A stretch of DNA of 64,000 nucleotides from the human T2T-CHM13v2.0 reference genome, Homo sapiens: NCBI RefSeq assembly GCF_009914755.1, contig NC_060940.1; one strand, given 5' to 3'. Made by a program: the position numbers and the translations under genes. Below the pieces are notes generated by a model. The model ran no database searches and was not told the DNA's origin. It worked only from the letters and a program-made list of their open reading frames with translations. Shown one piece after another: positions 1 to 48,720 of the stretch (within the stretch, counting starts at the first letter, position 1; the number at the start of each line of letters is the position of its first letter).

Positions 1-3000
1 ATAAAAACTAGACTGAAGCATTCTCAGAAACTTGTTCCTCATGAGTGTACTAAATTAATAGAGTTGAACCTTTCTTTTGGTAGAGCAGATTCAAAACACG
101 CTTTTTGTGGAATCTGCAAGTGGATACTTGGATTGCTTTGAGGATTTCGTTGGAAACGGGAATATCTCTATATAAAAAGAAGAAGCATCCTCAGAAACTT
201 CTTTATGATGTTTGCATTCAAGTCACAGAGTTGAACATTCCCTTTCACAGAGCAGGTACGAAACAGTCTTTTTATCGTATCTGGAAGTGGACATTTGGAG
301 CGCTTTGAGGCCTATGGTGAAAAAGGAAATATCTTCCCATAAAATCTAGACAGAAGGATTCTCAGAAACTTGTTTGGGATGTGTGTACTCAACTAACAGT
401 GTTGAAACTTTGTTTTGATAGAGCAGCTTTCAAACACTCTTTTTGTAAAATCTGCAAGTGGATATTTGGATAGCTTTGAGGATTTCATTGGAAACGGGAT
501 TATCTTCATATAAAAAGTAGACGTAAGCTTTCTGAGATACGTCTTTGTGATGTTCCCATTCAAGTCTCAGAGTTGAACATTCCCATTCATAGACCAGGTT
601 TGAAACACTCTTTTTGTAGAATCTGGAAGTGGACATTTGGAGCGCTTTGAGGCCTCTGGTGGAATAGGAAATCTCTTCCCATAAAAACTAGACAGAAGTA
701 TTCTCAGAAACTTGTTTGTCATGTGTCTACTCAACTAACAGAGTTGAACCTTTCTCTTGATAGAGCAGATCGGAAACACTCCGTTTGTAGAATCTGCAAG
801 TGGATATTTGCATAGCTTTGAGGATTTCGTTGGAAACGGGAATATCATCATATAAAATCGAGGCACATGCATTCTCAGAAACTTCGTTATGATGATTGCA
901 TTCAAGACACAGGGTTGAACATTCCCTTTCATAGAGCAGGTATGAAACACTCTTTTTGTAGAATCTGGAAGTGGACATTTGGAGCGCTTGGAGGCCTATG
1001 GTGAAAAAGGAAATCTCTTCCCATAAAAACTAGACAGAAGCATTCTCAGAAACTTGTTTTTGATGTGTGTACTCAAGTAACAGAGTTGAACCTTTCTTTC
1101 GATAGAGCAGTTTTGAAACACTCTTGTTATACAATCCGCAAGTGGATATTTGGATTGCTTTGAGGATTTCGTTGGAAACAGGATTATCTCCATATGAAAA
1201 GAAGAAGCATCTCAGAAACTTCTTTGTGATGTTTAATTTCAAGTCACAGAGTTGAGCATTCCCTTTTACAGAGCAGGTTTGAAACAGTCTTTTTCTAGTA
1301 TCTGGAAGTGGACATTCCGAAGGCTTTGAGGCCTATGGTGAAAAAGGAAATCTCTTCCCATAAAAAGTAGACAGAAGCATTCTCAGAAACTTGTTTGTGA
1401 TGTGGGTACTCAACTAACAGGGTTGACCCTTTCTTTTGAGAGAGCAGATTTGAAACACTCTTTTTGCAGGATCTGCAAGTGGATATTTGGATAGCTTTGA
1501 GGATTTCGGAGGAAACGGGAATATCTTTATATAAAAAGCAGACAGAAGCATTTTCAGAAACTTCATTGTGATGTACGCATTCAAGTCCCAGAGTTGAACA
1601 TTCCCTTCCGTGGAGCAGGTTTCAAACACTCTTTTTGTTGTATCTGGAAATGGACATTTGGAGCGCTTTGAGGCCTACGGTGAAAAAGGAAACATCTTCA
1701 CATAAAAACTAGACAGAAGCATTCTCAGAAACTTGTTTGTCATGTGTGTAATCAACTAACAGTGTTGAAGCTTTCTTTTAATGAAGCAGTTTTCAAACTC
1801 TCTTTTAGAAGAATCTGCAAGTGGATATTTGGATAGCGTTGAGGATTTCGTTGGAAACGGGAATAGCTTCATATAAAATCTCGACAGAAGTATTCTCAGA
1901 ATCTACTTTGTGATGTTTGCATTCAAGTCACAGAGTTTAACAATCCCTTTCATAGAGCAGGTTTGAAACACTCTTTTGGTGGTATCTGGAAGTGGGCATT
2001 TGGAGCGCTTGTGGCGTATGGTGAAAAATAAAACTTCTTCCCATGAAAACTAGACTGAAGCAGTCTCAGAAACTTGTTCCTCATCTGTGTACTCAACTAA
2101 TAGAATTGAGCCTTTCTTTTGATAGAGCAGATTCGAAACACGCTTTTTGTGGAATCTGCAAGTGGATACTTGGATTGCTTTGGGGATTTCGTTGAAAACG
2201 GGAATATCTCTATATAGAAAGAAGAAGCATCCTCAGAAACTTCTTTGTGATGTTTGCGTTCAAGTCACAGAGTTGAACATTCCCTTTCATAGAGCAGGTT
2301 TGAAACAGTCTTTTTATAATATCTGGAAGTGGACATTTGGATTGCTTTGAGGCCTACGGTAAAAAAGAAAATATCTTCCCATAAAATCTAGACAGAATGA
2401 TTCTCAGAAACTTGTTTGGGATGTGTGTACTCAACTAACAGTGTTGGAACTTTATTTTGATAGAGCAGCTTTCAAACACTCTTTTTGTAAAATCTGCAAG
2501 TGGATATTTGGACAGCTTTGAGGATTTCGTTGGAAACGGGATTATCTTCATATAAAAAGTAGACGTAAGCCTTCTGAGAAACGTCTTTGTGATGTTTCCA
2601 TTCAACTCTCAGATTTGAACATTCCCTTTCATAGAGCAGGTTTGAAACACGCTTTTTGTAGTACCTGGAAGTGGACATTTGGAGCGCTTTGAGGCCTATG
2701 GTGGATAGGAAATCTCTTCCCATAAAAACTAGTCAGAAGCATTCTCAGAAACTTGTTTGTCATGTGTCTACTCAACTAACAGAGTTGAACCTTTCTCTTG
2801 ATAGAGCAGATGGGAAACACTCTGTTTGTAGAATCTGCAAGTGGATATTTGCACAGCTTTGAGGATGTCGTTGGAAACGCGAATATCCTCATATAAAATC
2901 GAGGCACATGCATTCTCAGAAACTTCTTTATGATGATTGCATTCAAGTCACAGGGTTGAACATTCCCTTTCATAGAGCTGGTATGAAACACTCTTTTTGT

Positions 3001-5874
3001 GGAATCTGGAAGTGGACATTTGGAGCGCTTTGGGGCCTATGGTGAAAAAGGAAATCTCTTCCCATAAAAACTAGACAGAAGCATTCTCAGAAACTTGTTT
3101 TTGATGTGTGTACTCAACTAACAGAGTTGAACCTTTCTTTTGATAGAGCAGTTTTGAAACACTCTTGTTATAGAATCTGCAAGTGGATATTTGGATTGCT
3201 TTGAGGATTTCGTTGGAAACGGGATTATCTCCATATGAAAAGAAGAAGCATCTCAGAAACTTCTTTGTGATGTTTGCTTTCAAGTCACAGAGTTGAGCAT
3301 TCCCTTTTACAGAGCAGGTTTGAAACAGTCTTTTTCTAGTATCTGGAAGTGGACATTCCGAAGGCTTTGAGGCCTATGGTGAAAAAGGAAATCTCTTCCC
3401 ATAAAAAGTAGACAGAAGCATTCTCAGAAACTTGTTTGTGATGTGTGTACTCAACTAACAGAGTTGACCCTTTCTTTTGAGAGAGCAGTTTGGAAACACT
3501 CTTTTTGTAGGATCTGCAAGTGGATATTTGGATAGCTTTGAGGATTTTGGACGAAACGGGACTATCTTTATATAAAAAGCAGACAGAAGCATTTTCAGAA
3601 ACTTCTTTGTGATGTACGCATTCAAGCCCCAGAGTTGAACATTCCCTTCCATGGAGCAGGTTTGAAACACTCTTTTTGTTGTATCTGGAAATGGACATTT
3701 GGAGCGCTTTGAGGCCTACGGTGAAAAAGGAAACATCTTCACATAAAAACTAGACAGAAGCATTCTCAGAAACTTGTTTGTCATGTGTGTACTCAACTAA
3801 CAGTGTTGAAGATTTCTTTTAATGAAGCAGTTTTCAAACTCTCTTTTAGAAGAATCTGCAAGTGGTTATTTGGATAGCGTTGAGGATTTCGTTGGAAACG
3901 GGAATAGCTTCATATAAAATCTCGACAGAAGTATTCTCAGAAACTGATTTGTGATGTTTGCATTCAAGTCACAGAGTTTAACAATCCCTTTCATAGAGCA
4001 GGTTTGAAACACTCTTTTGGTGGTATCTGGAAGTGGGCATTTGGAGCGCTTGTGCCGTATGGTGAAAAATAAAACTTCTTCCCATAAAAACTAGACTGAA
4101 GCCTTCTCAGAAACTTGATCCTCATGTGTGTACTCAACTAATAGAGTTGAACCTTTCTCTTGATAGAGCAGATTCCAAACACGCTTTTTGTGGAATCTGC
4201 AAGTGGATAGTTGCATTGCTTTGAGGATTTCGTTGGAAACGGGAATATCTCCATATAGAAAGAAGAAGCATCCTCAGAAACTTCTTTATGATGTTTGCAT
4301 TCAAGTCACAGAGTTGAACATTCCGTTTCACACAGCAGGTTTGACACAGTCTTTTTATAGTATCTGGAAGTGGACATTTGGAGCGCTTTGAGGCCTACGG
4401 TGAAAAAGGAAATATCTTCCCATAAAATAGACAGAAGGATTCTCAGAAACTTGTTTGGGATGTGTGTACTCAACTAACACTGTTGAAACTTTGTTTTGAT
4501 ACAGCAGCTTTCAGACACTCTTTTTGTAAAATCTGCAAGTGGATATTTGGACAGCTTTGAGGATTTCGTTGGAAACGGGATTCTCTTCATATAAAAAGTA
4601 GACGTAAGCCTTCTGAGAAACGTCTTTGTGATGTTTCCATTCAAGTCTCAGAGTTGAACATTCCCTTTCATAGAGCAGGTTTGAAACACGCTTTTTGTAG
4701 TATCTGGAAGTGTACATTTGGAGCGCTTTGAGGCCTATTGTGGATAGGAAATCTCTTCCCATAAAAACTAGACAGAAGCATTCTCAGAAACTTGTTTGTC
4801 ATGTGTCTACTCAACTAACAGAGTTGAACTTTTCTCTTGATAGAGCAGATCGGAAACACTCTGTTTGTAGAATCTGCAAGTGGATATTTGCATAGCTTTG
4901 AGGATGTCGTTGGAAACGGGAATATCCTCATATAAAATCGGGACAGATGCATTCTCAGAAACTTCTTTATGATGATTGCATTCAAGTCACAGAGTTGAAC
5001 ATTCCCTTTCATAGAGCAGGTATGAAACACTCTTTTTGTAGAATCTGGAAGTGGACATTTGGAGCGCTTGGAGGCCTATGGTGAAAAAGGAAATCTCTTC
5101 CCATAAAAACTAGACAGAAGCATTCTCTGAAACAAGTTTTTGATGTGTGTACTCAACTAACAGAGTTGAACCTTTCTTTTGATAGAGCAGTTTTGAAACA
5201 CTCTTGTTATAGAATCTGCAAGTGGATATTTGGATTGCTTTGAGGATTTCGTTGGAAATGGGATTATCTCCATATGAAAAGAAGAAGCATCTCAGAAACT
5301 TCTTTGTGATGTTTGCTTTCAACTCACAGAGTTGAGCATTCCCTTTTACAGAGCAGGTTTGAAACAGTCTTTTTCTAGTATCTGGAAGTGGACATTCCGA
5401 AGGCTTTGAGGCCTATGGTGAAAAAGGAAATCTCTTCCCATAAAAAGTAGACAGAAGCATTCTCAGAAACTTGTTTGTGATGTGTGTACTCAACTCACAG
5501 AGTTGACCCTTTCTTTTGAGAGAGCAGTTTGGAAACACTCTTTTTGTAGGATCTGCAAATGGATATTTGGATAGCTTTGAGGATTTCGGAGGAAACGGGA
5601 ATATCTTTATATAAAAAGCATACGGAAGCATTTTCAGAAACTTCTTTGTGATGTACGCATTCAAGTCCCAGAGTTGAACATTCCCTTCCGTGGAGCAGGT
5701 TTGAAACACTCTTTTTGTTGTATCTGGAAATGGACATTTGGAGCGCTTTGAGGCCTACGGTGAAAAAGGAAACATCTTCACATAAAAACTAGACAGAAGC
5801 ATTCTCAGAAACTTGTTTGTCAAGTGTGTAATCAACTAACAGTGTTGAAGCTTTCTTTTAATGAAGCAGTTTTC
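1..5874 (+). repeat. Alpha satellite, SF2-like 12-monomer HOR (~2.04 kb), left segment
   Basis: ~171-bp monomers alternate between a CENP-B-box type (TTTCGTTGGAAACGGGA) and a box-less type (ggacatttggagcgctttgaggcctatggtgaaaaagg). Homologous spurious ORFs recur at 105, 2147 and 4188 (period 2042/2041). SF2 assignment is by recalled monomer consensus. Confidence 0.9.
5862..5874 (+). repeat. Target-site duplication of BCLAF1 retrocopy, left copy (TGAAGCAGTTTTC)
   Basis: Identical 13-mer at 8921-8933. Uninterrupted sister HORs read aatgaagcagttttcaaactc (~1780, ~3821, ~11304). Confidence 0.96.
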
Positions 5875-5901
5875 TTTTTTTTTTACGTAACAATTTTCTA
5901 C

Positions 5902-5907
5902 TTTATT
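5902..5907 (-). terminator. Polyadenylation signal AATAAA of the retrocopy
   Basis: tttatt on the + strand, 17 nt from the poly(A) tail. Confidence 0.85.
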
Positions 5908-6098
5908 TCAGTACAATTTTCAACATACAGTCTACTATTTATCAAGATATTTGAAGACTTACAACAAAATTTCTATAGACTACTTGCAAACAGTAAAATT
6001 TAAGTAAAATGCTTACATTCTTATTTGAAAACAAAAATCAGGTAAAAAAAAAACGGTGGGTGCAAGTTCTGCTCTGTTGTAATCTTACTTCATATTTA

Positions 6099-8708
6099 TT
6101 ATTCCTTTTCTTCCTTGCATCTGTCCTTCTTTTCTTCATTATTTTCCATGGTCTCTTCTTCATCTTCAACAATCCCATCCCCTTGGTATTTGTCATGATT
6201 CCATTTAGGACTGCTACCTGATTTTTTGAAGTTAAAGCGCCCTCTGCCACGTTGAAAAGTACCACGACCTCTTCCTCTTTTGGCCCAATAATCCACACCA
6301 TCATCTCTGTCGTCATGAAAGGTTCCTCGTGGTCGGCTAACTCCTGCAAAGCCTGAGTATTCTTTCATTTCATGGTGAGTTTTAAATTCTTCTTCTCTTT
6401 CCTTCTTACTCTCCTTTTCTTCTCGAGAACTGGGAGAAGAAGGTGATGCTGAAGAGGATGAAGATCGAGAATGATCTTGCTCTCTTTTATGTTTACTGTC
6501 ATCTTTGTAAGATTTGTATTCCTTGTAATCTTTCGGAGTTTTTTCCTGCTTTCTTGATCCCCTGGATTCCCTGGAGCCCTTGGAATCTCCCCGTTCTTTA
6601 CTTCTTTCTTTTCTACGGTGATCAATGTCATGTCGAAGGTCAGCAGAGTCACACCTTAATTTTTTATCTCCCTTTTGATTTTCTTCTTTAAAAACTCTCT
6701 CTTCCCCTGCTAAACGGGTATCCTTCCTCAGGGTACTTGGTGAGATGTCAATTCTCCTGTGTATTTCAGGGCTCTTTTGCCGAGTACTATGTTCTTCAGT
6801 GGCTTTCTGATACGAAGTGAACCGCTCGCTTAGGGTCATTGCAGCTGACTTGAAGTATTGCTCTTTAACATGATGAACCAAGGACACAATGTGTTGAATA
6901 AATGACTCTGAAGTGCTTTTGCTGGCCTGTGGCAACTTAATGTGGTCAAAGATGGATCGGAATTCTTGCTCCTTCTTGACAGAATGGACAAGTGTACTAG
7001 CAAGCAGCCTGTCTTTAGTCAAGGAAGCAGGTCTGTTAGAATCATCAAGAGGAACGGGTGCCATTTTGAGTTTGACTTCAGGACGGTGAGAATCACTCGC
7101 TATCATTTTGATCCTAAGTGGGCTTTCCTCTCTGAAGGTAGACTTTTCTCGTGCATCCAGATTCTTGTGTAGAGGGGGACTGTAATCAAAGAGGTCTTTG
7201 AGCTTTTCAGACTTTACCTGCTCAGGTGACTGAGTTTCTTTCTTTACTGTTATTCTTTCAGAATTTTTGTCTTCTTCTTTGTGCTTATCTTTTGTAGTGC
7301 TAGGCCTTTCCACCACATATCCAGTCTCTTTATGTTTATCATTTTTTTCTTCTCTAAATCCATCACTTTCTCTATTGCCTTTCAGTGAAACTTTGGACTT
7401 GTACTTGAGTCCTTCCTCCTCAGTATTCCGGTGAGATGCAGTAGCAAAACTTTTACCCTGATCTGCGAGGACTGACTTCCTGAACTGTCTATAATCCTCT
7501 GTCTCCTCTGTGTCATCCCCTTCTGAATCATTAAACTTTTGTTTTCCAGACTCTTTATCACTGAAGTAATCTAGAGCTTCCTGATCTTCCCATTCTCCCT
7601 CTGCCCTCCCTTTCTCTGATCCTTTCTCTTTTGAAGCCTCTTTATCCCTGGTATTACCCCTATCAAGCAGGAATACTCTAGACTCTTCATCTGTGAACCT
7701 TTTTAAGAACTTCCCAGTCTTTGCAGTTTCCTGATCTCCACCATCAGGATAAAACGAGGAACGGCCCCTAGACTCATCTCTTGGAGCATTCTGTGGTGCG
7801 ATTGTCTTTGCAGGACTTCTTCGTGAAGGGATGTGATGAATTGGACTATTCTGAGAAGGACTGTATCGACTAGATCCATTTCCAACAGAACCAGACCCAG
7901 ACCTTTCAGGACTATGCTGAATGGAATGTGAATGCTGAGAAGGAGTATTTTTTGCAGAGTGAACTGTACTGAGCATGGGAGCATCAGAGCAAGATGAACT
8001 CTGACTAGGTGGTGTAGCAATAGGTGAAGGACTATGGGGTGATCTAGGACTATTATCATAAGCTGAAAGGCCAGGCCAAATATCACTGCATGTGGCTGAC
8101 GACTTATTAAATTCATCGATAGACTCAGATGGGTCATGTTCAAATGTATCTTTCGGTTCCTCCTGTGATTTACTTTTCAACGGACTCTCTTCTTGGGGTT
8201 CCCCTTCAGCTTTTTTGGTTTGTTTTTCCTGAGACCCTCGTCTTTTAGAAACAGGAGATTTGCTATATGGGGATGAAGAACGAGAAGAGGATGATCTTGG
8301 AGACCTAGAAGATCTATATGACCGGCGAGATCTGCTTCTGGATCTTTGAGAAGAAACGGATCTTCTTTTTGGACTCCTGGAACGTGAACGACCTCGTCTA
8401 GGACTCCTAGAGTGCCTTCTATTCCAGACAGGTCTATAACCACCTCGATGATATCTACCTCCTCCTCCTTGATAATACCCTCTACCCCTTCCTCTGTACC
8501 CATAAGGTCGTCTCATTGCTCTATTATTTCTATAATCACGACGATAATCTCTAGAATACATACGATCTCTACTACGAGACCTTGAATATGTTCTGGAACG
8601 AGACCTGTATCGCTTCTTTCTAGAATGAGATCTTGATCTTGATCGAGAACTAGACTGTGATCTAGACTTTGACCTTGAAGAATGTGATCTAGAATTGGAG
8701 CGACCCAT
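6099..8708 (-). CDS. Intact 869-aa BCLAF1-like ORF (RS-rich N-terminus, THRAP3/BCLAF1 family); expression unknown
   Basis: [18 protein letters not shown]...[19 protein letters not shown]...EEKE with no stops or frameshifts. ATG and TAA are present at the parental positions. Confidence 0.85.
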
Positions 8709-8851
8709 TTCTTTTCTCCTTGGGTTTATGCAGGATCAAGAAGTCAAGTGAAGTCTTTGAGATACTGTAAAAATTCTTCCTGGAGAGAATGCTCTGAGAA
8801 ATTAAACTCTAAATTCGAATTCCTGACACGCCGAATCGCGGTTACGGGAAT

Positions 8852-8881
8852 TTATCTCCGTTGCAACCACACAGCGGCCAT
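8852..8881 (-). promoter_or_regulatory. uORF (MAAVWLQRR*) in the retrocopy 5' UTR
   Basis: ATG GCC GCT GTG TGG TTG CAA CGG AGA TAA in context GAAATGG (purine at -3, G at +4). Confidence 0.55.
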
Positions 8882-8920
8882 TTCCCGATTCAAGAATGCG
8901 AGGAAAACTATAGAGCTACC

Positions 8921-8933
8921 TGAAGCAGTTTTC
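8921..8933 (+). repeat. Target-site duplication of BCLAF1 retrocopy, right copy
   Basis: TGAAGCAGTTTTC, after which the satellite resumes in phase (aaactctcttttagaag). Confidence 0.96.
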
Positions 8934-11900
8934 AAACTCTCTTTTAGAAGAATCTGCAAGTGGATATTTGGATAGCGTTGAGGATTTCGTTGGAAACGGG
9001 AATAGCTTCATATAAAATCTCGACAGAAGTATTCTCAGAAACTACTTTGTGATGTTTGCATTCAAGTCACAGAGTTTAACAATCCCTTTCATAGAGCAGG
9101 TTTGAAACACTCTTTTTGTGGTATCTGGAAGTGGGCATTTGGAGCGCTTGTGGCCTATGGTGATAAATAAAACTTCATCCTATGAAAACCAGACTGAAGC
9201 ATTCTCAGAAACTTGTTCCTCATGTGTGTACTGAACTAATAGAGTTGAACCTTTCTTTTGATAGAGCAGATTCGAAACACGCTTTTTGTGGAATCTGCAA
9301 GTGGATACTTGGATTGCTTTGAGGATTTCGTTGGAAACGGGAATATCTCTATATAGAAAGAAGAAGCATCCTCAGAAACTTCTTTATGACGTTTGCATTC
9401 AAGTCACAGAGTTGAACATTCCCTTTCACAGAGCAGGTTTGAAACAGTCTTTTTATAGTATCTGGAAGTGGACATTTGGAGCGCTTTGAGGCCTATGGTG
9501 AAAAAGGAAATATCTTCCCATAAAATCTAGACAGAAGGATTCTCAGAAACTTATTTGGGATGTCTGTACTCAACTAACAGTGTTGAAAGTTTGTTTTGAT
9601 AGAGCAGCTTTCACACACTCTTTTTGTAAACTCTGCAAGTGGATATTTGGACAGCTTTGAGGATTTCGTTGGAAACGGGATTCTCTTCATATAAAAAGTA
9701 GACGTAAGCCTTCTGAGAAACGTCTTTGTGATGTTTCCATTCAAGTCTCAGAGTTGAACATTCCCTTTCATAGAGCAGATTTGAAACACGCTTTTTGTAG
9801 TATCTGGAAGTGGACATTTGGAGCGCTTTGAGGCCTATTGTGGATAGGAAATCTCCTCCCATAAAAACTAGACAGAAGCATTCTCAAAAACTTGTTTGTC
9901 ATGTGTCTACTCAACTAACAGAGTTGAACCTTTCTCTTGATAGAGCAGACCAGAAACACACTGTTTGTAGAATCTGCAAGTGGATATTTGTATAGCTTTG
10001 AGAATTTCGTTGGAAACGGGAATATCATCATATAAAATCTAGACAGATGCATTCTCAGAAACTTCTTTATCATGATTGCATTCAAGTCACGGAGTTGAAC
10101 TTTCCCTTTCATAGAGCAGGTATGAAACACTCTTTCTGTAGAATCTGGAAGTGGACATTTGGAGCGCTTTGAGGCCTATGGTGAAAAAGGAAATCTCTTC
10201 CCATAAAAACAAGACAGAAGCATTCTCAGAAACTTGCTTGTCATGTGTCTACTCAACTAACAGAGTTGAACCTTTCTCTTGATAGAGCAGATCGGAAACA
10301 CTCTGTTTCTAGAATCTGCAAGTGGATATTTGCATAGCTTAGAGGATTTCGTTGGAAACGGGAATATCCTCATATATAATCTAGACAGATGCATTCTCAG
10401 AAACTTCTTTATGATGATTGCATTCAAGTCACAGAGTTGAACATTCCCTTTCATAGAGCAGGTATGAAACACTCTTTTTGTAGAATCTGGAAAGGGACAT
10501 TTGTAGTGCTTTGTGGCCTATGGTGAAAAAGGAAATCTCTTCCCATAAAAACTAGACAGAAGCATTATCAGAAACCTGTTTTTGATGTGTGTACTCAACT
10601 AACAGAGTTGAACCTTTCTTTTGATAGAGCAGTTTTGAAACACTCTTGTTATAGAATCTGCAAGTGGATATTTGGATTGCTTTGAGGATTTCGTTGGAAA
10701 CGGGATTATCTCGATATGAAAAGAAGAAGCATTCTCAGAAACTTCTTTGTGATGTTTGCTTTCAACTCACAGAGTTGAGCATTCCCTTTTACAGAGCAGG
10801 TTTGAAACAGTCTTTTTCTAGTATCTGGAAGTGGACATTCCGAAGGCTTTGAGGCCTATGGTGAAAAAGGAAATCTCTTCCCATAAAAAGTAGACAGAAG
10901 CATTCTCAGAAACTTGTTTGTGATGTGTGTACTCAACTAACAGAGTTCGCCCTTTCTTTTGAGAGAGCAGTTTTGAAACACTCTTTTTGTAGGATCTGCA
11001 AGTGGATATTTGGATAGCTTTGAGGATTTCGGAGGAAACGGGAATATCTTTATATAAAAAGCAGACAGAAGCATTTTCAGAAACTTCTTTTGTGATGTAC
11101 GCATTCAAGTCCCAGAGTTGAACATTCCCTTCCGTGGAGCAGGTTTGAAACACTCTTTTTGTTGTATCTGGAAATGGACATTTGGAGCGCTTTGAGGCCT
11201 ACGGTGAAAAAGGAAATATCTTCCCATAAAAACTAGAGAGAAACATTCTCAGAAACTTGTTTGTCATGTGTGTAATCAACTAACAGTGTTGAAGCTTTCT
11301 TTTAATGAAGCAGTTTTCAAACTCTCTTTTAGAAGAATCTGCAAGTGGGTATTTGGATAGCGATGAGGGTTTCGTTGGAAACGGGAATAGCTTCATATAA
11401 AATCTCGACAGAAGTATTCTCAGAAACTGATTTGTGATGTTTGCATTCAAGTCACAGGGTTTAACAATCCCTTTCATAGAGCAGGTTTTAAACAATCTTT
11501 TGGTGGTATCTGAAAGTGGGCATTTGGAGGGCTTGTGGCCTATGGTGATAAATAAGACTTCTTCCCATAAAAACTAGACAGAAGCATTCTCAGAAACTTG
11601 TTCCTCATGAGTGTACTCAACTAATAGAGTTGAACCTTTCTTTTGATACAGCAGATTCGAAACACGCTTTTTGTGGAATCTGCAAGTGGATACTTGGATT
11701 GCTTTGAGGATTTCGTTGGAAACGGGAATATCTCTATATAGAAAGAAGAAGCATCCTCAGAAACTTCTTTATGACGTTTGCATTCAAGTCACAGGGTTAA
11801 ACATTCCCTTTCACAGAGCAGGTTTGAAACAGTCTTTTTATAGTATCTGGAAGTGGACATTTGGAGCGCTTTGAGGCCTATGGTGAAAAAGGAAATATCT

Positions 11901-12279
11901 TCCCATAAAATCTAGACAGAAGGATTCTCAGAAACTTGTTTGGGATGTCTGTACTCAACTAACAGTGTTGAAACTTTGTTTTGATAGAGCAGTTTTCAGA
12001 CACTCTTTTTGTAAAATCTGCAAGTGGATATTTGGACAGCTTTGAGGATTTCTTTGGAAACCGAATTCTCTTGATATAAAAAGTAGACGTAAGCCTTCTG
12101 AGAAACGTCTTTGTGATGTTTCCATTCAAGTCTCAGAGTTGAACATTCCCTTTTATAGAGCAGGTTTGAAACACGCTTTTTGTAGTATCTGGAAGTGGAC
12201 ATTTGGAGCGCTTTGAGGCCTATTGTGGATAGGAAATCTCTTCCCATAAAAACTAGACAGAAGCATTCTCAGAAACTTG
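8921..12279 (+). repeat. Alpha satellite, SF2-like 12-mer HOR, right segment, including one 14-mer variant
   Basis: Marker ORF at 9286 and 11671 (spacing 2385, about 2043+342). Dimer duplicated at 9879-10220 and 10221-10562. Confidence 0.9.
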
Positions 12280-15200
12280 GATGCCAAAGGTAGAAAAGGA
12301 AATATCTTCGTATAATAGCAAGACAAAATCATTCCCAGTAACTGCGTAGTGATGTGTGGGTTTAACTCACAGAGATTAACCTTTCTTTTCATACAGCATT
12401 CTGTAAACACTCAGTTTCTAAAGTCTGCAATTGGATATTTGGACCTATTAGATGCCTTCGTTGGAAAGGAGATTTCTTAATATAATGCTAGAGAGAAGAA
12501 TTCTTAGTAAATTCTTTGAGTTGTGTGTATTCAACAGAAAGAGTTGAACCTTCCTTTAGACAGAGCAGATTTGAAACACTCTTTTTGTGCAATTTGCAAG
12601 TGGAGATTTCAAGCGCTTTAAGGCAAATGGCAGAAAAGGAAATGTCTTTGCTTCAAAACTAGACAGAATCATTCCCACAAACTGCGTTGTGATGTGTGCG
12701 TTCAACTCACAGAGTTTAACCTTTCTTTTCATAGAGCCGTTTGTAAGCGCTCTGTTTGTCAAGGCTGCAAGTGGATATTCTGACCTCTTTGTGGACCTCG
12801 TTGGAAACGTGATTTCTTCCTATAATACTAGACAGAAGAATTCTCAGTAACTTCCTTGTGTTGTGTGTATTCAACTCACAGAGTTGAACGATCCTTTACA
12901 CAGAGAAGATTTGAGACACTCTCTTTGTGGAATTCGTAACTGGAGATTTCAGCCACTTTGAGGTCAATGGTAGAAAAGGAAATATCTTCGTATAAAAACT
13001 ACACAGAATGATTCTCAGAAACTTCTCTGTGATGTGTGCGTTCAAATCACAGAGTTTAACTTTTCTTTTCATAGAGCAGTTTGGAAACACTCTGTTTGTA
13101 AAGTCTGCAAGTGGATATATTGACCTCTTTGAGACCTTCGTTGGAAACGGGTTTTTTTCATGTAAGGCTAGACAGAGGAATTCCCAGTAACTTCCTTGTG
13201 TTGTGTGCATTCAACTCACAGAGTTGAATGATTCTTTACACAGAGCAGATTTGAAACACTCTTTTTCTGGAATTTGCAAGTGGAGATTTCAGCCGCTTTG
13301 AGGTCAATGGTAGAAAAGTAAATATCTTCGTATAAAAACTAGACAGAATGATTCTCAGAAACTCCTTTGTGATGTGTGCGTTCAACTCACAGAGTTTAAC
13401 CTTTCTTTTCATAGAGCAGTTAGGAAACACTCTGTTTGTGAAGTCTGCCAGTGGATATTTGGACCTCTTTGAGGCCTTCCTTGGAAACGGGATTTCTTCA
13501 TATTATGCTAGACAGATTTCTCAGTAACTACTTTGTGTTGTGTGTATCCAACTAACGGAGTTCAACCCTCCTTTAGACAGAGTAGATTTGAAACACTCTT
13601 TTTGTGGAATTTGCAAGTGGAGATTTCAAGCGCTTCAATGCCAATGGTAGGAAAGGAAATATCTTCCTATAAAAACAAGACAAAATCATTCCCAGAAACT
13701 GTGTAGTGATGTGTGTGTTTAACTCACAGAGTTTAACCTTTCTTTTCATAAAACATTCTGGAAACACTCTGTTTGTAAAGTCTGCAAGTGCATATTTAGA
13801 CCTCTTAGATGCCTTCGTTGGAAACGGGATTTCTTCATATTATGCTAGACAGAAGAATTCTCAGTAACTTCCTTGTGTTGTGTGTATTCAAGTCACAGAG
13901 TTGAACGATCCTTTACACAGAGCAGATTTGAAACACTCTTTTTCTGGAATTTGCAAGTGGAGATTTCAGCCGCTTTGAGGTCAATGGTAGAAAAGGAAAT
14001 ATCTTCGTATAAAAACTAGACAGAATGATTCTCAGAAACTCCTTTGTGATGTGTGCGTTCAACTCACAGAGTTTAACCTTTCTTTTCATAGAGCAGTTAG
14101 GAAACACTCTGTTTGTGAAGTCTGCCAGTGGATATTCGGACCTCTTTGAGGCCTTCGTTAGAAACGGGATTTCTTCATATTATGCTAGACAGAAGATTTC
14201 TCAGTAACTACTTTGTGTTGTGTGTATGCCACTCACAGAGTTCAACCTTCCTTTAGACAGAGCAGATTTGAAACACTCTTTTTGTGGAATTTGCAAGTGG
14301 AGATTTCAAGCGCTTCGATGCCAATGGTAGAAAAGGAAATATCTTCGTATAAAAACAAGACAAAATCATTCCCAGAAACTGCGTAGTGCTGTGTGTGTTT
14401 AACTCACAGATTTTAACCTTTCTTTTCATACAGCATTCTGGAAACACTCTGTTTGTAATGTCTACAAGTGCATATTTGGACCTCTTAGATGCCTTCGTTG
14501 GAAACGGGATTTCTTCATATAATTCTAGAGGGAAGAATTCTTAGTAACCTCTTTGTGTTATGTGTATTCAACTGATGCAGTTGAACCTTCCTTTAGACAG
14601 AGCAGATTCGAAACACTCTTTTTCTGGAATTTCCAAGTGGAGACTTCAAGCCCTTTCAGGCCAAAGGCAGAAAAGGCATTATCCTCGTATAAAAACCAGA
14701 CATAATCATTCTCAGAAACTGCTCTGTGATGTGTGCGTTCAAGTCACAGAGTTTAACTTTTCTTTTCATTCAGCAGTTTGGAAACGCTCTGTTTCTAAAG
14801 TCTGCAAGTGGATATATTGACCTCTTTGAGGCCTTCCTTGGAAACGGGTTTTTTTCATGTAAGGCTAGACAGAAGAATTCCCAGTAACTTCTTTGTGTTG
14901 TGTGCATTCAACTCACAGAGTTGGACGTTCCTTTAGACAGAGCAGATTTGAAACACTCTTTTTGTGCAATTTGCAAGTGGAGATTTCAAGCGCTTTAAGG
15001 TCAATGGCAGAAAAGAAAATACCTTCGTTTCAAAACTAGACAGTATCATTCCCACAAACTGCGTTATGATGTGTGCATTCAACTCACAGAGTTTAACCTT
15101 TCTTTTCATAGAGCCGTTTGTAAGCACTCTGTTTGTCAAGTCTGCAGGTGGATATTCTGACCACTTTGAGGACTTCGTTGGAAACAGGATTTCGTCCTAT

Positions 15201-18200
15201 AATACTAGACAGAAGAATTCTCAGTAACTTCCTTCTGTTGTGTGTATTCAACTCACAGAGTTGAACCATCTTTTACACAGAGCAGATCTGAAACACTCTT
15301 TTTGTGGAATTTGCAAGTGGAGATTTCAGCCACCTTGAGGTCAATGGTAGAAAAGGAAATATCTTCGTATAAAAACTAGACAGAATGATTCTCAGAAACT
15401 CCTTTGTGATGTGTGCGTTCAACTCACTGAGTTTAACCTTTCTTTTCATACAGCATTCTGGAAACACCCTGTTTCTAAAGTCTGCAAGTGGATATCTGGA
15501 CCTCTTAGATGCCTTCGTTGGAAACGGGATTTCTCCATATACTGCAAGAGGGAAGAATTCTTAGTAACATCTTTGTGTTGTGTGTATTCAACTGACAGAG
15601 TTGAACCTTCCTTTACACAGAGCAGATTTGAAACACTCTTTTTGTGGAATTTGCAAGTGGAGATTTCAGTCGCTTTGAGGCCAAAAGCAGAAAAGGAAAT
15701 ATTTTCCTATAAAAACTAGATAGAATCATTCTCAAAACTGCTCTGTGATGTGTGCGTTCAACTCACAGAGTTTAACTTTTCATTCAGCAGTTTGGAAACA
15801 CTCTGTTTGTAAAGTCTGCAACTGGATATTTTGACCTCTTTGAGGCCTTCGTTGAAAACGGGTTTTTTTCATGTAAGGCTAGAAGAAGAAATCTCAGTAA
15901 CTTCCTTGTGTTGTGGGTATTGAACTGAGAGAGTTGAACCTTCCTTTAGACAGAGCAGATTCGAAACACTCTTTTTGTGCAATTTGCAAGTGGAAACTTC
16001 AAGCGCTTTGAGGCCAAAGGCAGAAAAGGAAATATCTTCGTATAAAAACCCGACAGAATCATTCTCAGAAACTGCTCTGTGATGTGTGCGTTCAACTCAC
16101 AGAGTTTAACTTTTCTTTTCATTCAGCACTTTGCAAACACTCTGTTTGTAAAGTCTACAAGTGGATATATTGACCTCTTTGAGGCCTTCGTTGGAAAAGG
16201 GTTTTTTCATGTAAGGCTAGACAGAGGAATTCCCAGTAACTTCCTTGTGTTGTGTGCATTCAACTCACAGAGTTGAATGATTCTTTACACAGAGCAGATT
16301 TGAGACACTCTTTTGGTGGAATCTGTAAGTGGAGAATTCAGCCGCTTTGAGGTCAATGGTAGAAAAGGAAATATCTTCCTATAAAAACAAGACAAAATCA
16401 TTCCCAGAAACTGCGTAGTGATGTGTGTGTTTAACTCACAGAGTTTAACCTTTCTTTTCATACAGCATTCTGGAAACACTCTGTTTGTAAAGTCTACAAG
16501 TGCATATTTGGACCTCTTTGATGCCTTCGTTGGAAACGGGATTTCTTCATATAATGCTAGAGGGAAGAATTCTTAATAAGTTCTTTGTGTTGTGTGTATT
16601 CAACTGACAGATTTGAACCTTCCTTTAGACAGAGCAGATTTGAAACACCCTTTTTGTGGAATTTCAAGTGGAGACTTCAAGTGCTTTGAGGCCAAAGGCA
16701 GAAAAGGAAATATCTTCGTATAAAAACCAGACAGAATCATTCTCAGAAACTGCTCTGTGATGTGTGCGTTCAACTCACAGAGTTTAACTTTTCTTTTCAT
16801 TCAGCAGTTTGGAAACACTCTTTTTGTAAAGTCTGCACGTGGATATATTGACCTCTTTGAGGCCTTCGTTGCAATCGGGTTTTTTTCATGTAAGGCTAGA
16901 CAGAGGAATTCCCAGTAACTTCCTTCTGTTGTGTCCATTCAACTCACGGAGTTGAACGTTCCTTTAGACAGAGCAGATTTGAAACACTCTTTTTCTGCAA
17001 TTTGCAAGTGGAGACTTCAAGCGCTTTAAGGTCAATGGCAGAAAAAGAAGTATCTTCGTTTCAAAATTAGACAGTATCATTCCCACAAACTGCGTTGTGA
17101 TGTGTGCGTTCAACTCACAGAGTTTAACCTTTCTTTTCATAGAGCCGTTTGTAAACGCTCTGTTTGTCAAGTCTGCAAGTGGATATTCTGACCTCTTTGA
17201 GGACTTCTTTGGAAACGGGATTTCTTCCTATAATACTAGACAGAAGAATTCTCAGTAACTTCCTTGTGTTGTGTGTATTCAACTCACAGACTTGAACGAT
17301 CCTTTACACAGAGCAGATTTGAGACACTCTTTTTGTGGAATATGTAAGTGGAGATTTCAGCCGCTTTGAGGTCAATGGTAGAAAAGGAAATATCTTCGTA
17401 TAAAAACTACACAGAATGATTCTCAGAAACTGCTTTGTGATGTGCCCTTTCAACTCACAGACTTTAACCTTTCTTTTCATAGAACAGTTAGCAAACACTC
17501 TGTTTGTAAAGTCTGCAAGTGGATATACAGACCTCTTTGAGGCCTTCGTTGGAAACGGGATTTCTTCATTTTATGCTAGACAGAAGAATTCTCAGTAACT
17601 ACCTTGTGTTGTGTGTATTTAACTCACAGAGTTGAACCATCTTCTACACAGAGCAGATCTGAAACACTCTTTTTGTGGGATTTGCAAGTGGAGATTTCAG
17701 CCAACTTGAGGTCAATGGTAGAAAAGGAAATATCTTCGTATACAAACTAGACAGAATGATTCTCAGCAACTCCTTTGTGATGTGTGCGTACAACACACAG
17801 ACTTTAACCTTTCTTTTTATACAGCATTCTGGAAACACTCTGTTTGTAAAGTCTGCAAGTGGATATCTGGACCTCTTAGATGCCTTCGTTGGAAACGGGA
17901 TTGCTTCATATAATGCTAGAGGGAAGAATTCTTAATAAGTTCTTTGTGTTGTGTGTATTCAACTGACAGATTTGAACCTTCCTTTAGACAGAGCAGATTT
18001 GTAACACCGTTTTTGTGAAATTTCAAGTGGAGACTTCAAGCGCTTTGAGGCCAAAGGCAGAAAAGGAAATATCTTCGTATAAAAACCAGACAGAATCATT
18101 CTCAGAAACTGCTCTCTGATGTGTGCGTTCAACTCACAGAGTTTAACTTTTCTTTTCATTCACCAGTTTGGAAACACTCTTTTTGTAAAATCTGCAAATG

Positions 18201-18540
18201 GATATATTGACCTCTTTGAGGCCTTCGTTGCAAACGGGTTTTTTTCATGTAAGGCTAGACAGAGGAATTCCCAGTAACTTCCTTGTGTTGTGTGCATTCA
18301 ACTCACAGAGTTGAACATTCCTTTAGACAGAGCAGATTTGAAACACTCTTTTTGTGCAATTTGCAAGTGGAGACTTCAAGAGCTTAAAGGTCAATGGCAG
18401 AAAAAGAAATATCTTCGTTTCAAAACTAGACAGTATCATTCCCACAAACTGCGTTGTGATGTGTGCGTTCAACTCACAGAGTTTAACCTTTCTTTTCATA
18501 GAGCCGTTTGTAAGCGCTCTGTTTGTAAAGTCTGCAAGTG
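12280..18540 (+). repeat. Divergent SF1 (J1/J2 dimeric) alpha satellite transition layer
   Basis: ~340-bp dimers with gaattctcagtaacttccttgtgttgtgtgtattc and CTTCGTTGGAAACGGG. Dimer order is irregular, there are many substitutions, and it contains a cattcccacaaactgcgtt monomer type not seen further right. Right boundary is approximate. Confidence 0.8.
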
Positions 18541-21500
18541 GATATCTTGGCCTCTTAGAGGCCTTCGTTGGAAACGGGTTTTTTTCATATAAGGTTAGAC
18601 AGAGGAATTCCCAGTAACTTCCTTGTGTTGTGTGCATTCAACTCACAGAGTTGAATGATTCTTTACACAGAGCAGATTTGAGACACTCTTTTGGTGGAAT
18701 TTGTAAGTGGAGAATTCCGCCGCTTTGAGTCAATGGTAGGCAAGGAAATATCTTCGTATAAAAACAAGACAGAATGATTCTCAGAAACTGTTTTGTGATG
18801 TGTGCGTTCAACTCACAGAGTTTAACCTTTCTTTTCAAAGAGCAGTTAGGAAACACTCTGTTTGTAAAGTCTGCAAGTGGATATTCAGACCTCTTTGAGG
18901 CCTTCGTTGGAAACGGGATTTCTTCATATTATGCTAGACAGAAGAATTCTCAGTAACTTCCTTGTGTTGTGTGTATTCAACTCACAGAGTTGAACGATCC
19001 TTTACACAGAGCAGATTTGAAACACTCTTTTTCTGGAATTTGCAAGTGGAGATTTCAGCCGCTTTGAGGTCAATGGTAGAAAAGGAAATATCTTCGTATA
19101 AAAACTAGACAGAATGATTCTCAGAAACTCCTTTGTGATGTGTGCGTTCAACTCACAGAGTTTAACCTTTCTTTTCACAGACCAGTTAGGAAACACTCTG
19201 TTTGTGAAGTCTGCCAGTGGATATTAGTACCTCTTTGAGGCCTTCGTTGGAAACGGGATTTCTTCATATTATGCTAGACAGATTTCTCAGTAACTACTTT
19301 GTGTTGTGTGTATGCAACTCACAGAGTTCATCCTTCCTTTAGACAGAGCAGATTTGAAACACTCTTTTTGTGGAATTTGCAAGTGGAGATTTCAAGCGCT
19401 TCGACGCCAATGGTCGAAAAGGAAATATCTTCGTATAAAAACAAGACAAAATCATTCCCAGAAACTGCGTAGTGCTGTGTGTGTTTAACTCACAGAGTTT
19501 AACCTTTCTTTTCATACAGCATTCTGGAAACCCTCTGTTTGTAAAGTCTGCAAGTGGATATTTGGACGTCTTAGATGCCTTCGTTGGAAACGGGATTTCT
19601 TCATATAATGCTAGAGGGAAGAATTCTTAGTAACTTCTTTGTGTTGTGTATATTCAACTGACAGAGTTGAACCTTCCTTTAGACAGAGCAGATTTGAAAG
19701 TCTCTTTTTGTGGAATTTGCAAGTGGAGATTTCAAGCGCTTTGAGGCCAAAAGCAGAAAAGGAAATATTCTCCTATAAAAACTAGACAGAATCATTCTCA
19801 GAAACTGCTCTGTGATGTGTGCGTTCAACTCACAGAGTTTAACTTTTCTTTTCATTCAGCAGTTTGGAAACACTCTGTTTGAAAAGTCTGCCGTGGATAT
19901 TTTGACCTCTTTGAGGCCTTCGTTGGAAACGGGTTTTTTTCATGTAAGGCTAGACAGAGGAAATCTCTGTAACTTCCTTGTGTTGTGTGTATTCAACTGA
20001 CAGAGTTGAACCTTCCTTTAGACAGAGCAGATTCGAAGCACTCTTTTTCTGCAATTTGCAAGTGGAGACTTCAAGCGCTTTGAGGCCAAAGGCAGAAAAG
20101 GAAATATCTTCGTATAAAAACCCGACAGAATCATTCTCAGAAACTGCTCTGTGATGTGTGCGTTCAACTCACAGAGTTTAACTTTTCTTTTCATTCAGCA
20201 GTTTGGAAACACTCTGTTTATAAAGTCTGCAAGTGGATATATTGGCCTCTTAGAGGCCTTCGTTGGAAACGGGTTTTTATCATGTAAGGTTATTCAGAGG
20301 AATTCCCAGTAACTTCCTTGTGTTGTGTGCATTCAACTCAGAGAGTTGAATGATTCTTTACACAGAGCAGATTTGAGACACTCTTTTAGTGGAATTTGTA
20401 TGTGGAGAATTCAGCCGCTTTGAGGTCAATGGTAGAAAAGGAAATATCTTCGTATAAAAACTAGACAGAATGATTCTCAGAAACTGTTTTGTGATGTGTG
20501 CGTTCAACTCACAGAGTTTAACCTTTCTTTTCAAAGAGCAGTTAGGAAACACTCTGTTTGTAAAGTCTGCCAGTGGATATTCAGACCTCTTTGAGGCCTT
20601 CGTTGGAAACGGGATTTCTTCATATTATGCTAGACAGAAGAATTCTCAGTAACTTCCTTGTGTTGTGTGTATTCAACTCACAGAGTTGAACGATCCTTTA
20701 CACAGAGCCGATTTGAAACACTCTTTTTCTGGAATTTGCAAGTGGAGATTTCAGCCGCTTTGAGGTCAATGGTAGAAAAGGAAATATCTTCGTATAAAAA
20801 CTAGACAGAATGATTCTCAGAAACTCCTTTGTGATGTGTGCGTTCAACTCACAGAGTTTAACCTTTCTTTTCACAGACCAGTTAGGAAACACTCTGTTTG
20901 TGAAGTCTGCCAGTGGATATTCGGACCTCTTTGAGGCCTTCGTTGGAAACGGGATTTCTTCATATTATGCTAGACAGATTTCTCAGTAACTACTTTGTGT
21001 TGTGTATATGCAACTCACAGAGTTCAACCTTCCTTTAGAGAGAGCAGATTTGAAACACTCTTTTTGTGGAATTTGGAAGTGGAGATTTCAAGCGCTTCGA
21101 TGCCAATGGTAGAAAAGGAAATATCTTCGTATAAAAACAAGACAAACTCGTTCCCAGAAACTGCGTAGTGATGTGTGTGTTTAACTCACAGAGTTTAACC
21201 TTTCTTTTCATACAGAATTCTGGAAACCCTCTGTTTGTAAAGTCTGCAAGTGGATATTTGGACCTCTTAGATGCCTTCTTTGGAAACGGGATTTCTTCAT
21301 ATAATGGTAGAGGGAAGAATTCTTAGTAACTTCTTTGTGTTGTGTGTATTCAACTGACAGAGTTGAACATTCCTTTAGACAGAGCAGATTTGAAAGTCTC
21401 TTTTTGTGGAATTTGCAAGTGGAGATTTCAAGCACTTTGAGGCCAAAAGCAGAAAAGGAAATATTTTCCTATAAAAACTAGACATAATCATTCTCAGAAA

Positions 21501-44218: not shown

Positions 44219-44443
44219 TGCTTTTTTTTTTTTTTTTTTTTATACTCTAAGTATTAGGGTACATGTGCACATTGTGCAGGTTAGTTACATATGTATACAT
44301 GTGCCATGCTGGTGCGCTGCACCCACTAATGTGTCATCTAGCATTAGGTATATCTCCCAATGCTATCCCTCCCCCCTCCCCCGACCCCACCCCAGTCCCC
44401 AGAGTGTGATATTACCCTTCCTGTGTCCATGTGATCTCATTGT

Positions 44444-48295
<3,852 letters not shown>

Positions 48296-48334
48296 TCATT
48301 AGTTGATGCAGTTTCTTCCTAGTCTCGATGGTCT

Positions 48335-48720
48335 TTACATTTTGGCATGATTTTGCAGCGGCTGGTACCGGTTGTTCCTTTCCATGTTTAGCGCTTCCTT
48401 CAGGAGCTCTTTTAGGGCAGGCCTGGTGGTGACAAAATCTCTCAGCATTTGCTTGTCTATAAAGTATTTTATTTCTCCTTCACTTATGAAGCTTAGTTTG
48501 GCTGGATATGAAATTCTGGGTTGAAAATTCTTTCCTTTAAGAATGTTGAATATTGGCCCCCACTCTCTTCTGGCTTGTAGGGTTTCTGCCGAGAGATCCG
48601 CTGTTAGTCTGATGGGCTTCCCTTTGAGGGTAACCCGACCTTTCTCTCTGGCTGCCCTTAACATTTTTTCCTTCATTTCAACTTTGGTGAATCTGACAAT
48701 TATGTGTCTTGGAGTTGCTC
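48335..48720 (-). pseudogene. C-terminal fragment of L1 ORF1p
   Basis: ...AAREKG...QARREW...YPAKLS...QNHAKM*. N-terminus and 5' UTR are missing. Confidence 0.93.

What the first reader, a model, noticed from the sequence alone, without database searches (positions are those of the whole stretch)
5875..8920. BCLAF1 retrocopy with a fully open 869-aa ORF embedded in a centromeric HOR array
Seen: an intronless cDNA with 5' UTR, 2610-bp open frame, AATAAA, poly(A) and perfect TSD, inserted in one alpha-satellite monomer. Known: BCLAF1 is an RS-domain RNA-processing and DNA-damage-response factor, and cellular-mRNA retrocopies inside HOR arrays are rare. Inference: it is either simply young or a potentially translatable retrogene. 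It lies antisense to the satellite strand shown, so read-through satellite transcription could make sense or antisense BCLAF1 RNA.
Basis: partly seen in the sequence, partly recalled or inferred. Interest (0 to 1): 0.8.

Follow-up and report, generated by a model that had tools for sequence, protein, structure and literature searches.

The report
BCLAF1 processed pseudogene beside chr16 centromere
This is the already annotated pseudogene BCLAF1P2, an LINE-1-made DNA copy of a spliced BCLAF1 messenger RNA that landed in a small satellite block at the edge of the chromosome 16 centromere, and its reading frame is still open most likely because it has had few mutations, not because it is in use.

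Summary
Window 5862-8933 (minus strand) is a near full-length, intronless BCLAF1 cDNA. It has a 212-nt 5'UTR, an open 869-codon frame (6099-8708), AATAAA, a 10-nt poly(A) and a perfect 13-bp target-site duplication, and it splits one alpha-satellite monomer. It is the RefSeq-annotated BCLAF1P2.

Against the spliced parent (chr6 of the same genome) it shows 26 substitutions and one 2-bp indel in 3035 nt (0.86%). The coding part has 18 substitutions (7 synonymous, 11 missense) and no indel. It derives from a natural isoform that skips exon 11.

An open frame after 18 substitutions has a chance of about 0.1-0.25. The missense/neutral ratio is about 0.45 (95% CI 0.19-1.1), so neutrality is not firmly rejected. 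Eight of the 11 replacements hit residues invariant in 16 amniote orthologues, against a 70% background. CpG decay is as expected for methylated DNA.

The host is not the main 10-mer array. It is a roughly 7-unit 12-mer HOR relic (about 96% between units) in the transition zone.

Verdict: an ordinary, moderately young processed pseudogene. Expression and translation could not be tested here. Low interest.

The parts
8921..8933 (.). Target-site duplication, copy at the 5' end of the retrocopy (13 bp; + strand reads TGAAGCAGTTTTC)
   Evidence: Identical to 5862-5874. The 13-mer occurs 5 times in the window: these two copies plus once in each of 3 sister monomers (1782, 3823, 11306).
8709..8920 (-). 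5'UTR of the BCLAF1 cDNA (exon 1 part, exon 2 and the start of exon 3); 212 nt
   Evidence: Aligns to parent exons at C6:137477923 and downstream. 5 substitutions in 212 nt; 1 of 11 parental CpGs lost.
6099..8708 (-). Open reading frame of 869 codons plus TAA, the BCLAF1 isoform lacking exon 11 and using the downstream tandem acceptor of exon 4
   Evidence: ORF; Pfam PF15440, E 4.9e-148; 18 substitutions, 7 synonymous and 11 missense, no indel; the 147-nt exon 11 is present in the parent and in the C5 copy but absent here, with the junction at window 6318|6317.
5885..6098 (-). 3'UTR up to a proximal polyadenylation site; contains AATAAA at 5902-5907
   Evidence: 3 substitutions and one 2-bp insertion in a T run (window 6052-6053).
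5875..5884 (-). Poly(A) tail, 10 nt
   Evidence: The parent genomic sequence continues differently here.
5862..5874 (.). Target-site duplication, copy at the 3' end
   Evidence: The nick site inferred on the + strand is TTTTC/AAA, close to the L1 endonuclease preference (the consensus is recalled, not from a call).
5818..9043 (+). The single alpha-satellite monomer interrupted by the insertion (5818-5874 plus 8934-9043)
   Evidence: HMM positions 2-56 and 46-168. (the rebuilt empty site is 97.6-98.8% identical to sister monomers at 1738, 3779 and 11261).
1..12276 (+). Host block: a 12-mer (about 2.04 kb) alpha-satellite HOR with variants, about 96% identity between units; it begins about 2.5 kb before the window
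   Evidence: Its monomers are only 77-84% identical to those of the 10-mer array.

Best explanation
BCLAF1P2 is a processed pseudogene. A mature, polyadenylated BCLAF1 mRNA was reverse-transcribed by the LINE-1 machinery. That mRNA skipped exon 11, used the downstream tandem acceptor of exon 4, and ended at a proximal poly(A) site. Reverse transcription was primed at a nick (TTTTC/AAA) in one monomer of a small 12-mer alpha-satellite HOR on the short-arm edge of the chr16 centromere.

The copy carries no parental promoter. It has since drifted neutrally, or nearly so, and was methylated in the germ line. Its 2.6-kb frame is open because only 18 substitutions and no indel have hit the coding part so far.

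Shown: the structure, the origin, the isoform, the divergence and the pattern of substitutions. Inferred: neutrality, silence, and an age of roughly 5-12 million years (from 0.72% non-CpG divergence and recalled primate rates).
For: Structure: 11 exact exon junctions with GT..AG introns removed, a poly(A), AATAAA, a perfect 13-bp duplication and an intact empty site in 3 sister monomers.

Single copy: the genome search found this locus, the parent on C6, an older copy on C5, and two weak partial matches (74% and 79% identity) on C18 and C3 (the tool states its counts are lower bounds).

Divergence: 26 substitutions in 3035 nt. 5 of 64 parental CpGs are lost against 0.72% non-CpG divergence, about the tenfold excess expected for methylated DNA. 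The 5' end loses CpGs at the same rate as the rest, 1 of 11 versus 4 of 52.

Open frame by chance: P(no stop | 18 substitutions) is 0.30-0.50 under six mutation models. The C5 copy has 7 stops and 3 frameshifts per 81 CDS substitutions. That rate gives 2.2 disabling events expected here, so P(none) is about 0.11.

No sign of protein-level constraint: in all 11 replacements the parent keeps the residue of at least 12 of 16 amniote orthologues (15 or 16 of 16 at nine of them). 8 of 11 fall on columns invariant in the orthologues, against 610 of 869 (70%) in the whole protein. They include Y457D, H663D, R864C and S207C.

Synonymous versus missense alone does not reject neutrality: p 0.14-0.23.
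Against: There is a mild missense deficit.

- Nei-Gojobori dN/dS is 0.43.
- With UTR plus synonymous sites as the neutral reference, omega is 0.41-0.51. The 95% CI is about 0.17-1.24 across models and counts, and the one-sided p is 0.02-0.07.
- The missense:synonymous ratio is 11:7. In the older C5 copy the non-synonymous:synonymous ratio is 64:13. Fisher p is 0.054, or 0.11 when the C5 copy's 7 stop codons are left out.
- The UTRs are more diverged than the CDS: 8 of 425 nt versus 18 of 2610 nt.
- The start codon context, the frame and the stop are all intact.
- One preprint lists BCLAF1P2 among differentially expressed non-coding genes (one passage read). With 99% identity to the parent this may reflect mis-mapped reads.

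No RNA, methylation, population or ape data could be consulted.
Confidence: 0.85

Rival explanations
1. BCLAF1P2 is a working retrogene. It would be transcribed from a recruited or satellite promoter and translated into an 869-aa BCLAF1 paralogue under weak purifying selection.
For: The 869-codon frame is intact with the parental start context. omega is about 0.45 with one-sided p 0.02-0.07. There are no disabling mutations where about 2.2 were expected from the C5 copy's rate, P about 0.11. The source isoform is a natural in-frame one.
Against: 8 of 11 replacements change residues invariant in 16 amniote orthologues, the same share as random. The CI of omega includes 1. Synonymous versus missense alone gives p 0.14-0.23. 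The locus was picked because its frame is open, so that fact cannot count as evidence. No parental promoter was copied, and the upstream flank is alpha satellite. CpGs at the 5' end decay like the rest. No paper found reports a transcript or protein assigned to it.
Confidence: 0.08
2. The copy acts as RNA only. Read-through from satellite transcription would give sense or antisense BCLAF1-like RNA that modulates the parent gene.
For: 99% identity to the parent mRNA over 3 kb. It lies inside transcribable satellite DNA (general knowledge, recalled). One differential-expression mention exists.
Against: There is no evidence of transcription specific to this copy. UTRs and CDS both accumulate changes. 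Nothing in the sequence distinguishes it from thousands of inert retrocopies. The mechanism is speculative.
Confidence: 0.05
3. It is an assembly or contamination artefact, with cDNA wrongly placed in satellite DNA.
For: None specific. Centromeric regions are hard to assemble.
Against: The perfect duplication, the poly(A) and an empty site matching three sister monomers show a real insertion event. Its 26 differences from the parent rule out fresh cDNA contamination. The gene symbol is already used for a chr16 pericentromeric locus in a 2021 paper's table built on an older reference.
Confidence: 0.01

Closest known systems
LINE-1-mediated processed pseudogenes (retrocopies) of human genes
   Same: Intronless, near full-length cDNA with a poly(A) after AATAAA, a 13-bp target-site duplication, a T-rich nick site and no parental promoter.
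   Different: Nothing in the mechanism differs. The unusual points are the open 2.6-kb frame and the host sequence, an alpha-satellite HOR monomer.
The older BCLAF1 retrocopy on contig C5 (111458442-111461618) of the same genome
   Same: Same parent and same type of event. It served here as outgroup and as an empirical neutral control.
   Different: The C5 copy includes exon 11 and the upstream tandem acceptor. It has 81 CDS substitutions (3.1%), 7 in-frame stops and 3 one-base deletions. The chr16 copy has 18 substitutions and none of these.
Parent gene BCLAF1 (C6:137448999-137477923), THRAP3/BCLAF1 family
   Same: 98.7% identical protein (858 of 869) and the same Pfam domain.
   Different: 11 replacements, 8 of them at residues invariant in 16 amniote orthologues. 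No introns and no promoter.
L1 and Alu insertions inside alpha-satellite HOR arrays
   Same: Same enzymatic machinery and the same kind of target. The window itself holds a 4.5-kb L1 in the 10-mer array. A 2025 preprint reports such insertions in 30% of 2,110 centromeres and often on chr16 (passages read).
   Different: Here the template was a cellular mRNA. The host is a small flanking 12-mer HOR, not the large 10-mer array.

Membership tests
L1-mediated processed pseudogene | Exact exon-exon junctions of a multi-exon parent, introns absent | tested here: met
   12 parental exons are joined at 11 junctions. All removed introns are GT..AG, and there is no indel at any junction.
L1-mediated processed pseudogene | Poly(A) tail downstream of a polyadenylation signal and not encoded in the parent genome | tested here: met
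   AATAAA at 5902-5907 and A10 at 5875-5884. The parent genomic sequence diverges at that point.
L1-mediated processed pseudogene | Target-site duplication flanking the insert, present once at an empty site | tested here: met
   A perfect 13-bp duplication. Three sister monomers carry it once, and the rebuilt empty site is 97.6-98.8% identical to them.
L1-mediated processed pseudogene | T-rich / A nick site typical of L1 endonuclease | tested here: met
   The + strand reads TTTTC/AAA at the priming nick. The consensus TTTT/AA is recalled, not from a call.
Functional retrogene | Intact full-length reading frame | tested here: met
   869 codons, ATG to TAA. The chance expectation of 0.1-0.25 makes this weak evidence.
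Functional retrogene | dN/dS on the retrocopy branch significantly below 1 | tested here: inconclusive
   omega is 0.41-0.51, the 95% CI is about 0.17-1.24, and the one-sided p is 0.02-0.07. Synonymous versus missense alone gives p 0.14-0.23.
Functional retrogene | Replacements avoid conserved residues | tested here: not met
   8 of 11 fall on columns invariant in 16 amniote orthologues, against 70% for all columns.
Functional retrogene | Copy-specific transcription and translation; frame kept in other haplotypes and species | not testable with these tools
   No RNA, ribosome, peptide, methylation, pangenome or ape data are on hand. In the literature, 3 papers hold the symbol. The 2 that were listed were read as passages, and neither shows function.
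THRAP3/BCLAF1 protein family (Pfam PF15440) | Match above the curated cut-off | tested here: met
   495.5 bits against a cut-off of 27, covering residues 106-759.
Insertion in the main chr16 10-mer HOR array (D16Z2 type) | Flanks are 10-mer (about 1.7 kb) units at 97-100% identity | tested here: not met
   The flanks are 12-mer units at about 96% identity. Their monomers are 77-84% identical to the 10-mer monomers. The 10-mer periodicity starts near window 19000.

The most novel reading that the evidence does not exclude
BCLAF1P2 is a great-ape-age retrogene kept open by weak purifying selection (omega about 0.45). It would be transcribed from pericentromeric satellite chromatin and translated into an RS-rich BCLAF1 paralogue carrying 11 private residues.
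Probability: 0.07. Interest if true: 0.55.

Novelty: already known. Interest (0 to 1): 0.2.

Why it matters
As it stands it matters little. The locus is an annotated pseudogene and behaves like one. Three things here are useful.

1. The RefSeq two-'exon' model (5964-7179 and 7699-8891) is probably an alignment artefact. The gap starts exactly at the first base of parental exon 5 and is 519 nt (173 codons) long. That is what a shorter-isoform template would give (inference). The copy itself is continuous.
2. There are 26 diagnostic nucleotide positions and 11 diagnostic residues. These are needed to keep BCLAF1 RNA-seq and proteomics reads from being mis-assigned between parent and copy.
3. The copy is a dated marker (0.86% divergence) inside an old satellite layer next to the chr16 centromere. 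It could help to order the layers in ape comparisons.

If the copy were shown to be translated, it would be a rare protein-coding gene embedded in centromeric satellite DNA.

Tried and rejected
- Earlier findings of this scan were not open to the session, so none were used.
- Ungapped offset identity gave blurred periodicities. It was replaced by monomer-by-monomer alignment.
- Literature: 'BCLAF1P2' is held by 3 papers. The 2 that were listed were read as passages: a nearest-gene table entry and a one-line mention in a differential-expression list. 'bclaf1 pseudogene' returned 0 papers.
- 'bclaf1' with 'retrocopy' or 'processed pseudogene' gave 1 and 8 papers. Passages were read in four of them. 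They concern other, polymorphic BCLAF1 retrocopies, or BCLAF1 as an RNA-binding protein.
- A 2020 preprint on ape processed pseudogenes mentions neither BCLAF1 nor centromeres.
- Supplements were not opened. These include Supplemental Fig. S4 of PMC3847774 on BCLAF1 retroduplications and the insertion tables of the centromere preprint, which are closed. They might bear on population frequency.
- I considered that the three CDS sites where the C5 copy agrees with the chr16 copy were changes in the parent. This was rejected for the two missense sites, because 16 of 16 orthologues carry the parental residue, and all three sites are parental CpGs, so parallel decay is likelier.
- An APOBEC-type explanation for the three G-to-A changes in exon 1 was considered and dropped, because their sequence contexts differ.
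- No structure prediction or complex prediction was run. The protein is a known family and the question is evolutionary.

Full report
**What is there**

On the minus strand of window 5862-8933 lies a near full-length copy of a spliced BCLAF1 mRNA.
- The frame from ATG (8708) to TAA (6099) is open for 869 codons. It matches Pfam THRAP3_BCLAF1 at E 4.9e-148.
- Upstream are 212 nt of 5'UTR.
- Downstream is a 3'UTR that ends at AATAAA (5902-5907), followed 17 nt later by ten A (5875-5884).
- The insert is bracketed by a perfect 13-bp duplication at 5862-5874 and 8921-8933.

**Origin**

The window's own genome is held. A DNA search found four kinds of match (the tool says its counts are lower bounds):
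- the locus itself;
- the multi-exon parent on contig C6 (137448999-137477923, mostly 98-100% identity per exon, 96-97% for the two 5' exons);
- one older intronless copy on C5 (95%);
- two weak partial matches (74% and 79% identity) on C18 and C3.

I fetched the parent and located the junctions. Twelve exons are joined at 11 junctions, and every removed intron is GT..AG.

Two features identify the source isoform.
- The 147-nt exon 11 (C6:137455131-137455277, flanked by AG and GT) is missing here but present in the C5 copy.
- At exon 4 the downstream of two acceptors 6 nt apart was used.

Both changes are in frame, which explains 869 aa. From memory, this matches a catalogued 869-aa BCLAF1 isoform; that is recalled and not checked.

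The stop codon ends 6 nt into the last exon.

The RefSeq model's gap (7180-7698, 519 nt) begins exactly at the first base of exon 5. It therefore looks like the footprint of a shorter-isoform alignment template, not a feature of the DNA (inference).

**Insertion mechanism**

A monomer model built from the window finds alpha-satellite monomers along the window. There are only two interruptions (and the first 39 bases).

The retrocopy splits one monomer: model positions 2-56 end at 5872 and positions 46-168 resume at 8921. Joining the flanks with one duplication copy restores a 167-nt monomer. It is 97.6-98.8% identical to the corresponding monomers of three sister HOR units, each of which holds the 13-mer once.

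The priming nick on the + strand reads TTTTC/AAA, close to the recalled L1 endonuclease preference.

This is textbook target-primed reverse transcription. It rules out an assembly artefact.

**Context**

Monomer-by-monomer alignment shows three zones:
- Window 1-12276 is a 12-mer HOR (about 2.04 kb) with 13-15-mer variants. Identity between units is about 96%.
- 12276 to about 19000 is irregular.
- From about 19000 to 64000 a 10-mer (about 1.7 kb) HOR runs at 97-100%.

A preprint calls the chr16 10-mer D16Z2.

I fetched 100 kb upstream. There the regular 12-mer periodicity begins only about 2.5 kb before the window. Further out the alpha satellite is irregular (best neighbour identity mostly 85-93%), changes orientation twice, and is broken by eight non-alpha gaps.

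The 12-mer monomers are only 77-84% identical to the 10-mer monomers.

So the host is a small relic HOR of about seven units in the transition zone, roughly 10 kb outside the homogeneous array. 'Embedded in a centromeric HOR array' is literally true, but it suggests more than is there.

**Divergence**

A three-way alignment of the chr16 copy, the spliced parent and the C5 copy gives these counts:

| Region | Length (nt) | Substitutions | Indels |
|---|---|---|---|
| 5'UTR | 212 | 5 | 0 |
| CDS | 2610 | 18 | 0 |
| 3'UTR | 213 | 3 | one 2-bp insertion in a T run |
| All | 3035 | 26 (0.86%) | 1 |

The C5 copy serves as outgroup.
- At 21 of the 26 sites it agrees with the parent, which places the change on the chr16 copy.
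- One site is three-way different.
- At four sites it agrees with the chr16 copy. Three of these are parental CpGs in the CDS.

For the two missense sites among those three, 16 of 16 orthologues carry the parental residue. These are therefore parallel CpG losses.

Five of 64 parental CpGs are lost, against 0.72% divergence at non-CpG sites. The 5'UTR loses CpGs at the same rate as the rest (1 of 11). That is the pattern of DNA methylated in the germ line, and it gives no hint of a protected promoter island. The numbers are small.

With recalled primate substitution rates the copy would be roughly 5-12 million years old. This is an inference, not a measurement.

**Is the open frame more than chance?**

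Of the 18 CDS changes, 7 are synonymous and 11 are missense.

Under six mutation models, 3.8-6.4% of random substitutions in this sequence create a stop. That gives P(no stop in 18) of 0.30-0.50.

The C5 copy is an empirical control. It has 81 CDS substitutions, 7 in-frame stops and 3 one-base deletions, or 0.12 disabling events per substitution. This predicts 2.2 such events here, so P(none) is about 0.11.

An open frame is thus mildly lucky but not remarkable. It also cannot count as evidence, because the locus was picked for being open.

**Selection tests**

- Nei-Gojobori dN/dS is 0.43. Synonymous versus missense alone does not reject neutrality (p 0.14-0.23).
- Adding the UTR changes to the neutral reference gives omega of 0.41-0.51. 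The 95% CI is about 0.17-1.24 and the one-sided p is 0.02-0.07, depending on the model and on how ambiguous sites are counted.
- The missense:synonymous ratio here is 11:7; in the C5 copy non-synonymous:synonymous is 64:13. Fisher p is 0.054, or 0.11 without that copy's stops.

These results lean towards a mild missense deficit and are reported as such.

Against constraint stands the placement of the replacements. I aligned the copy and the parent with 16 amniote BCLAF1 proteins, chosen by me from the 120 listed hits. They are four mammals (one a monotreme), three birds, and nine non-avian reptiles (turtles, a tuatara, lizards and a snake).
- In all 11 replacements the parent keeps the residue of at least 12 of the 16 orthologues (15 or 16 of 16 at nine of them).
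- 8 of 11 fall on columns invariant in the orthologues.
- The background is 610 of 869 columns (70%).

A protein still doing BCLAF1's job would be expected to shed such changes, which include Y457D, H663D, S207C and R864C.

**Literature**

The symbol BCLAF1P2 is held by three papers. The two that were listed were read as passages.
- One is a nearest-gene table entry near chr16:34.6 Mb of an older reference.
- The other is a one-line mention among differentially expressed non-coding genes.

'bclaf1 pseudogene' gave no paper.

A 2013 study notes that BCLAF1 has highly similar retroduplications in the reference genome and a further polymorphic one (passage).

A 2025 preprint on 2,110 centromeres reports L1 or Alu in the HOR arrays of 30% of centromeres, and unusually often on chr16. 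The words 'retrocop' and 'pseudogene' do not occur in its main text.

I found no report that assigns a transcript or a peptide to this copy (searches).

**Verdict**

This is an ordinary L1-made processed pseudogene of BCLAF1. It is already annotated, moderately young, and most likely silent and drifting.

The retrogene reading keeps a small probability because of the borderline missense deficit. It can only be decided with ape orthologues, human haplotypes and copy-specific RNA or peptide data, none of which were available here.

Noticed in passing
window 44211-48717 (minus strand): A 4.5-kb 5'-truncated LINE-1 sits inside the homogeneous 10-mer HOR array. It has a poly(A) of about 22 nt (a T run on the + strand near 44224-44245). 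Its ORF2 frame is open over 1283 codons with endonuclease and reverse-transcriptase Pfam matches, and only the C-terminal part of ORF1 is present. It has the same orientation as the BCLAF1 retrocopy.
   Followed up: partly
window 12276-19000: This is the junction zone between the 12-mer HOR block and the 10-mer array. A partial monomer lies at 12276-12343, followed by about 7 kb of dimeric alpha satellite with no stable higher-order period and best identities of 82-95% at varying offsets.
   Followed up: partly
G000:C16:35736001-35836000 (loci L016-L025), i.e. window -100000 to 0: There is about 92 kb of irregular alpha satellite upstream. An inverted segment runs from about -76953 to -45610, and eight non-alpha gaps of 0.5-4.5 kb occur, for example -45610 to -41067. 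These are probably transposon insertions but were not examined.
   Followed up: no
G000:C5:111458442-111461618 (loci L002, L005, L015): This is an older BCLAF1 retrocopy. It includes exon 11 (with a 10-nt deletion) and the upstream tandem acceptor. It is 3.1% diverged in the CDS, with 7 in-frame stops (five are CGA or CAA to TGA or TAA) and 3 one-base deletions. Its alignment continues past the chr16 copy's poly(A) site, so it used a more distal site.
   Followed up: partly
window 5964-8891: The RefSeq pseudogene model has two 'exons' with a gap at 7180-7698. The gap is 519 nt (173 codons) and begins at the first base of parental exon 5. The DNA is continuous cDNA there, so the gap looks like an artefact of aligning a shorter isoform (inference).
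   Followed up: partly
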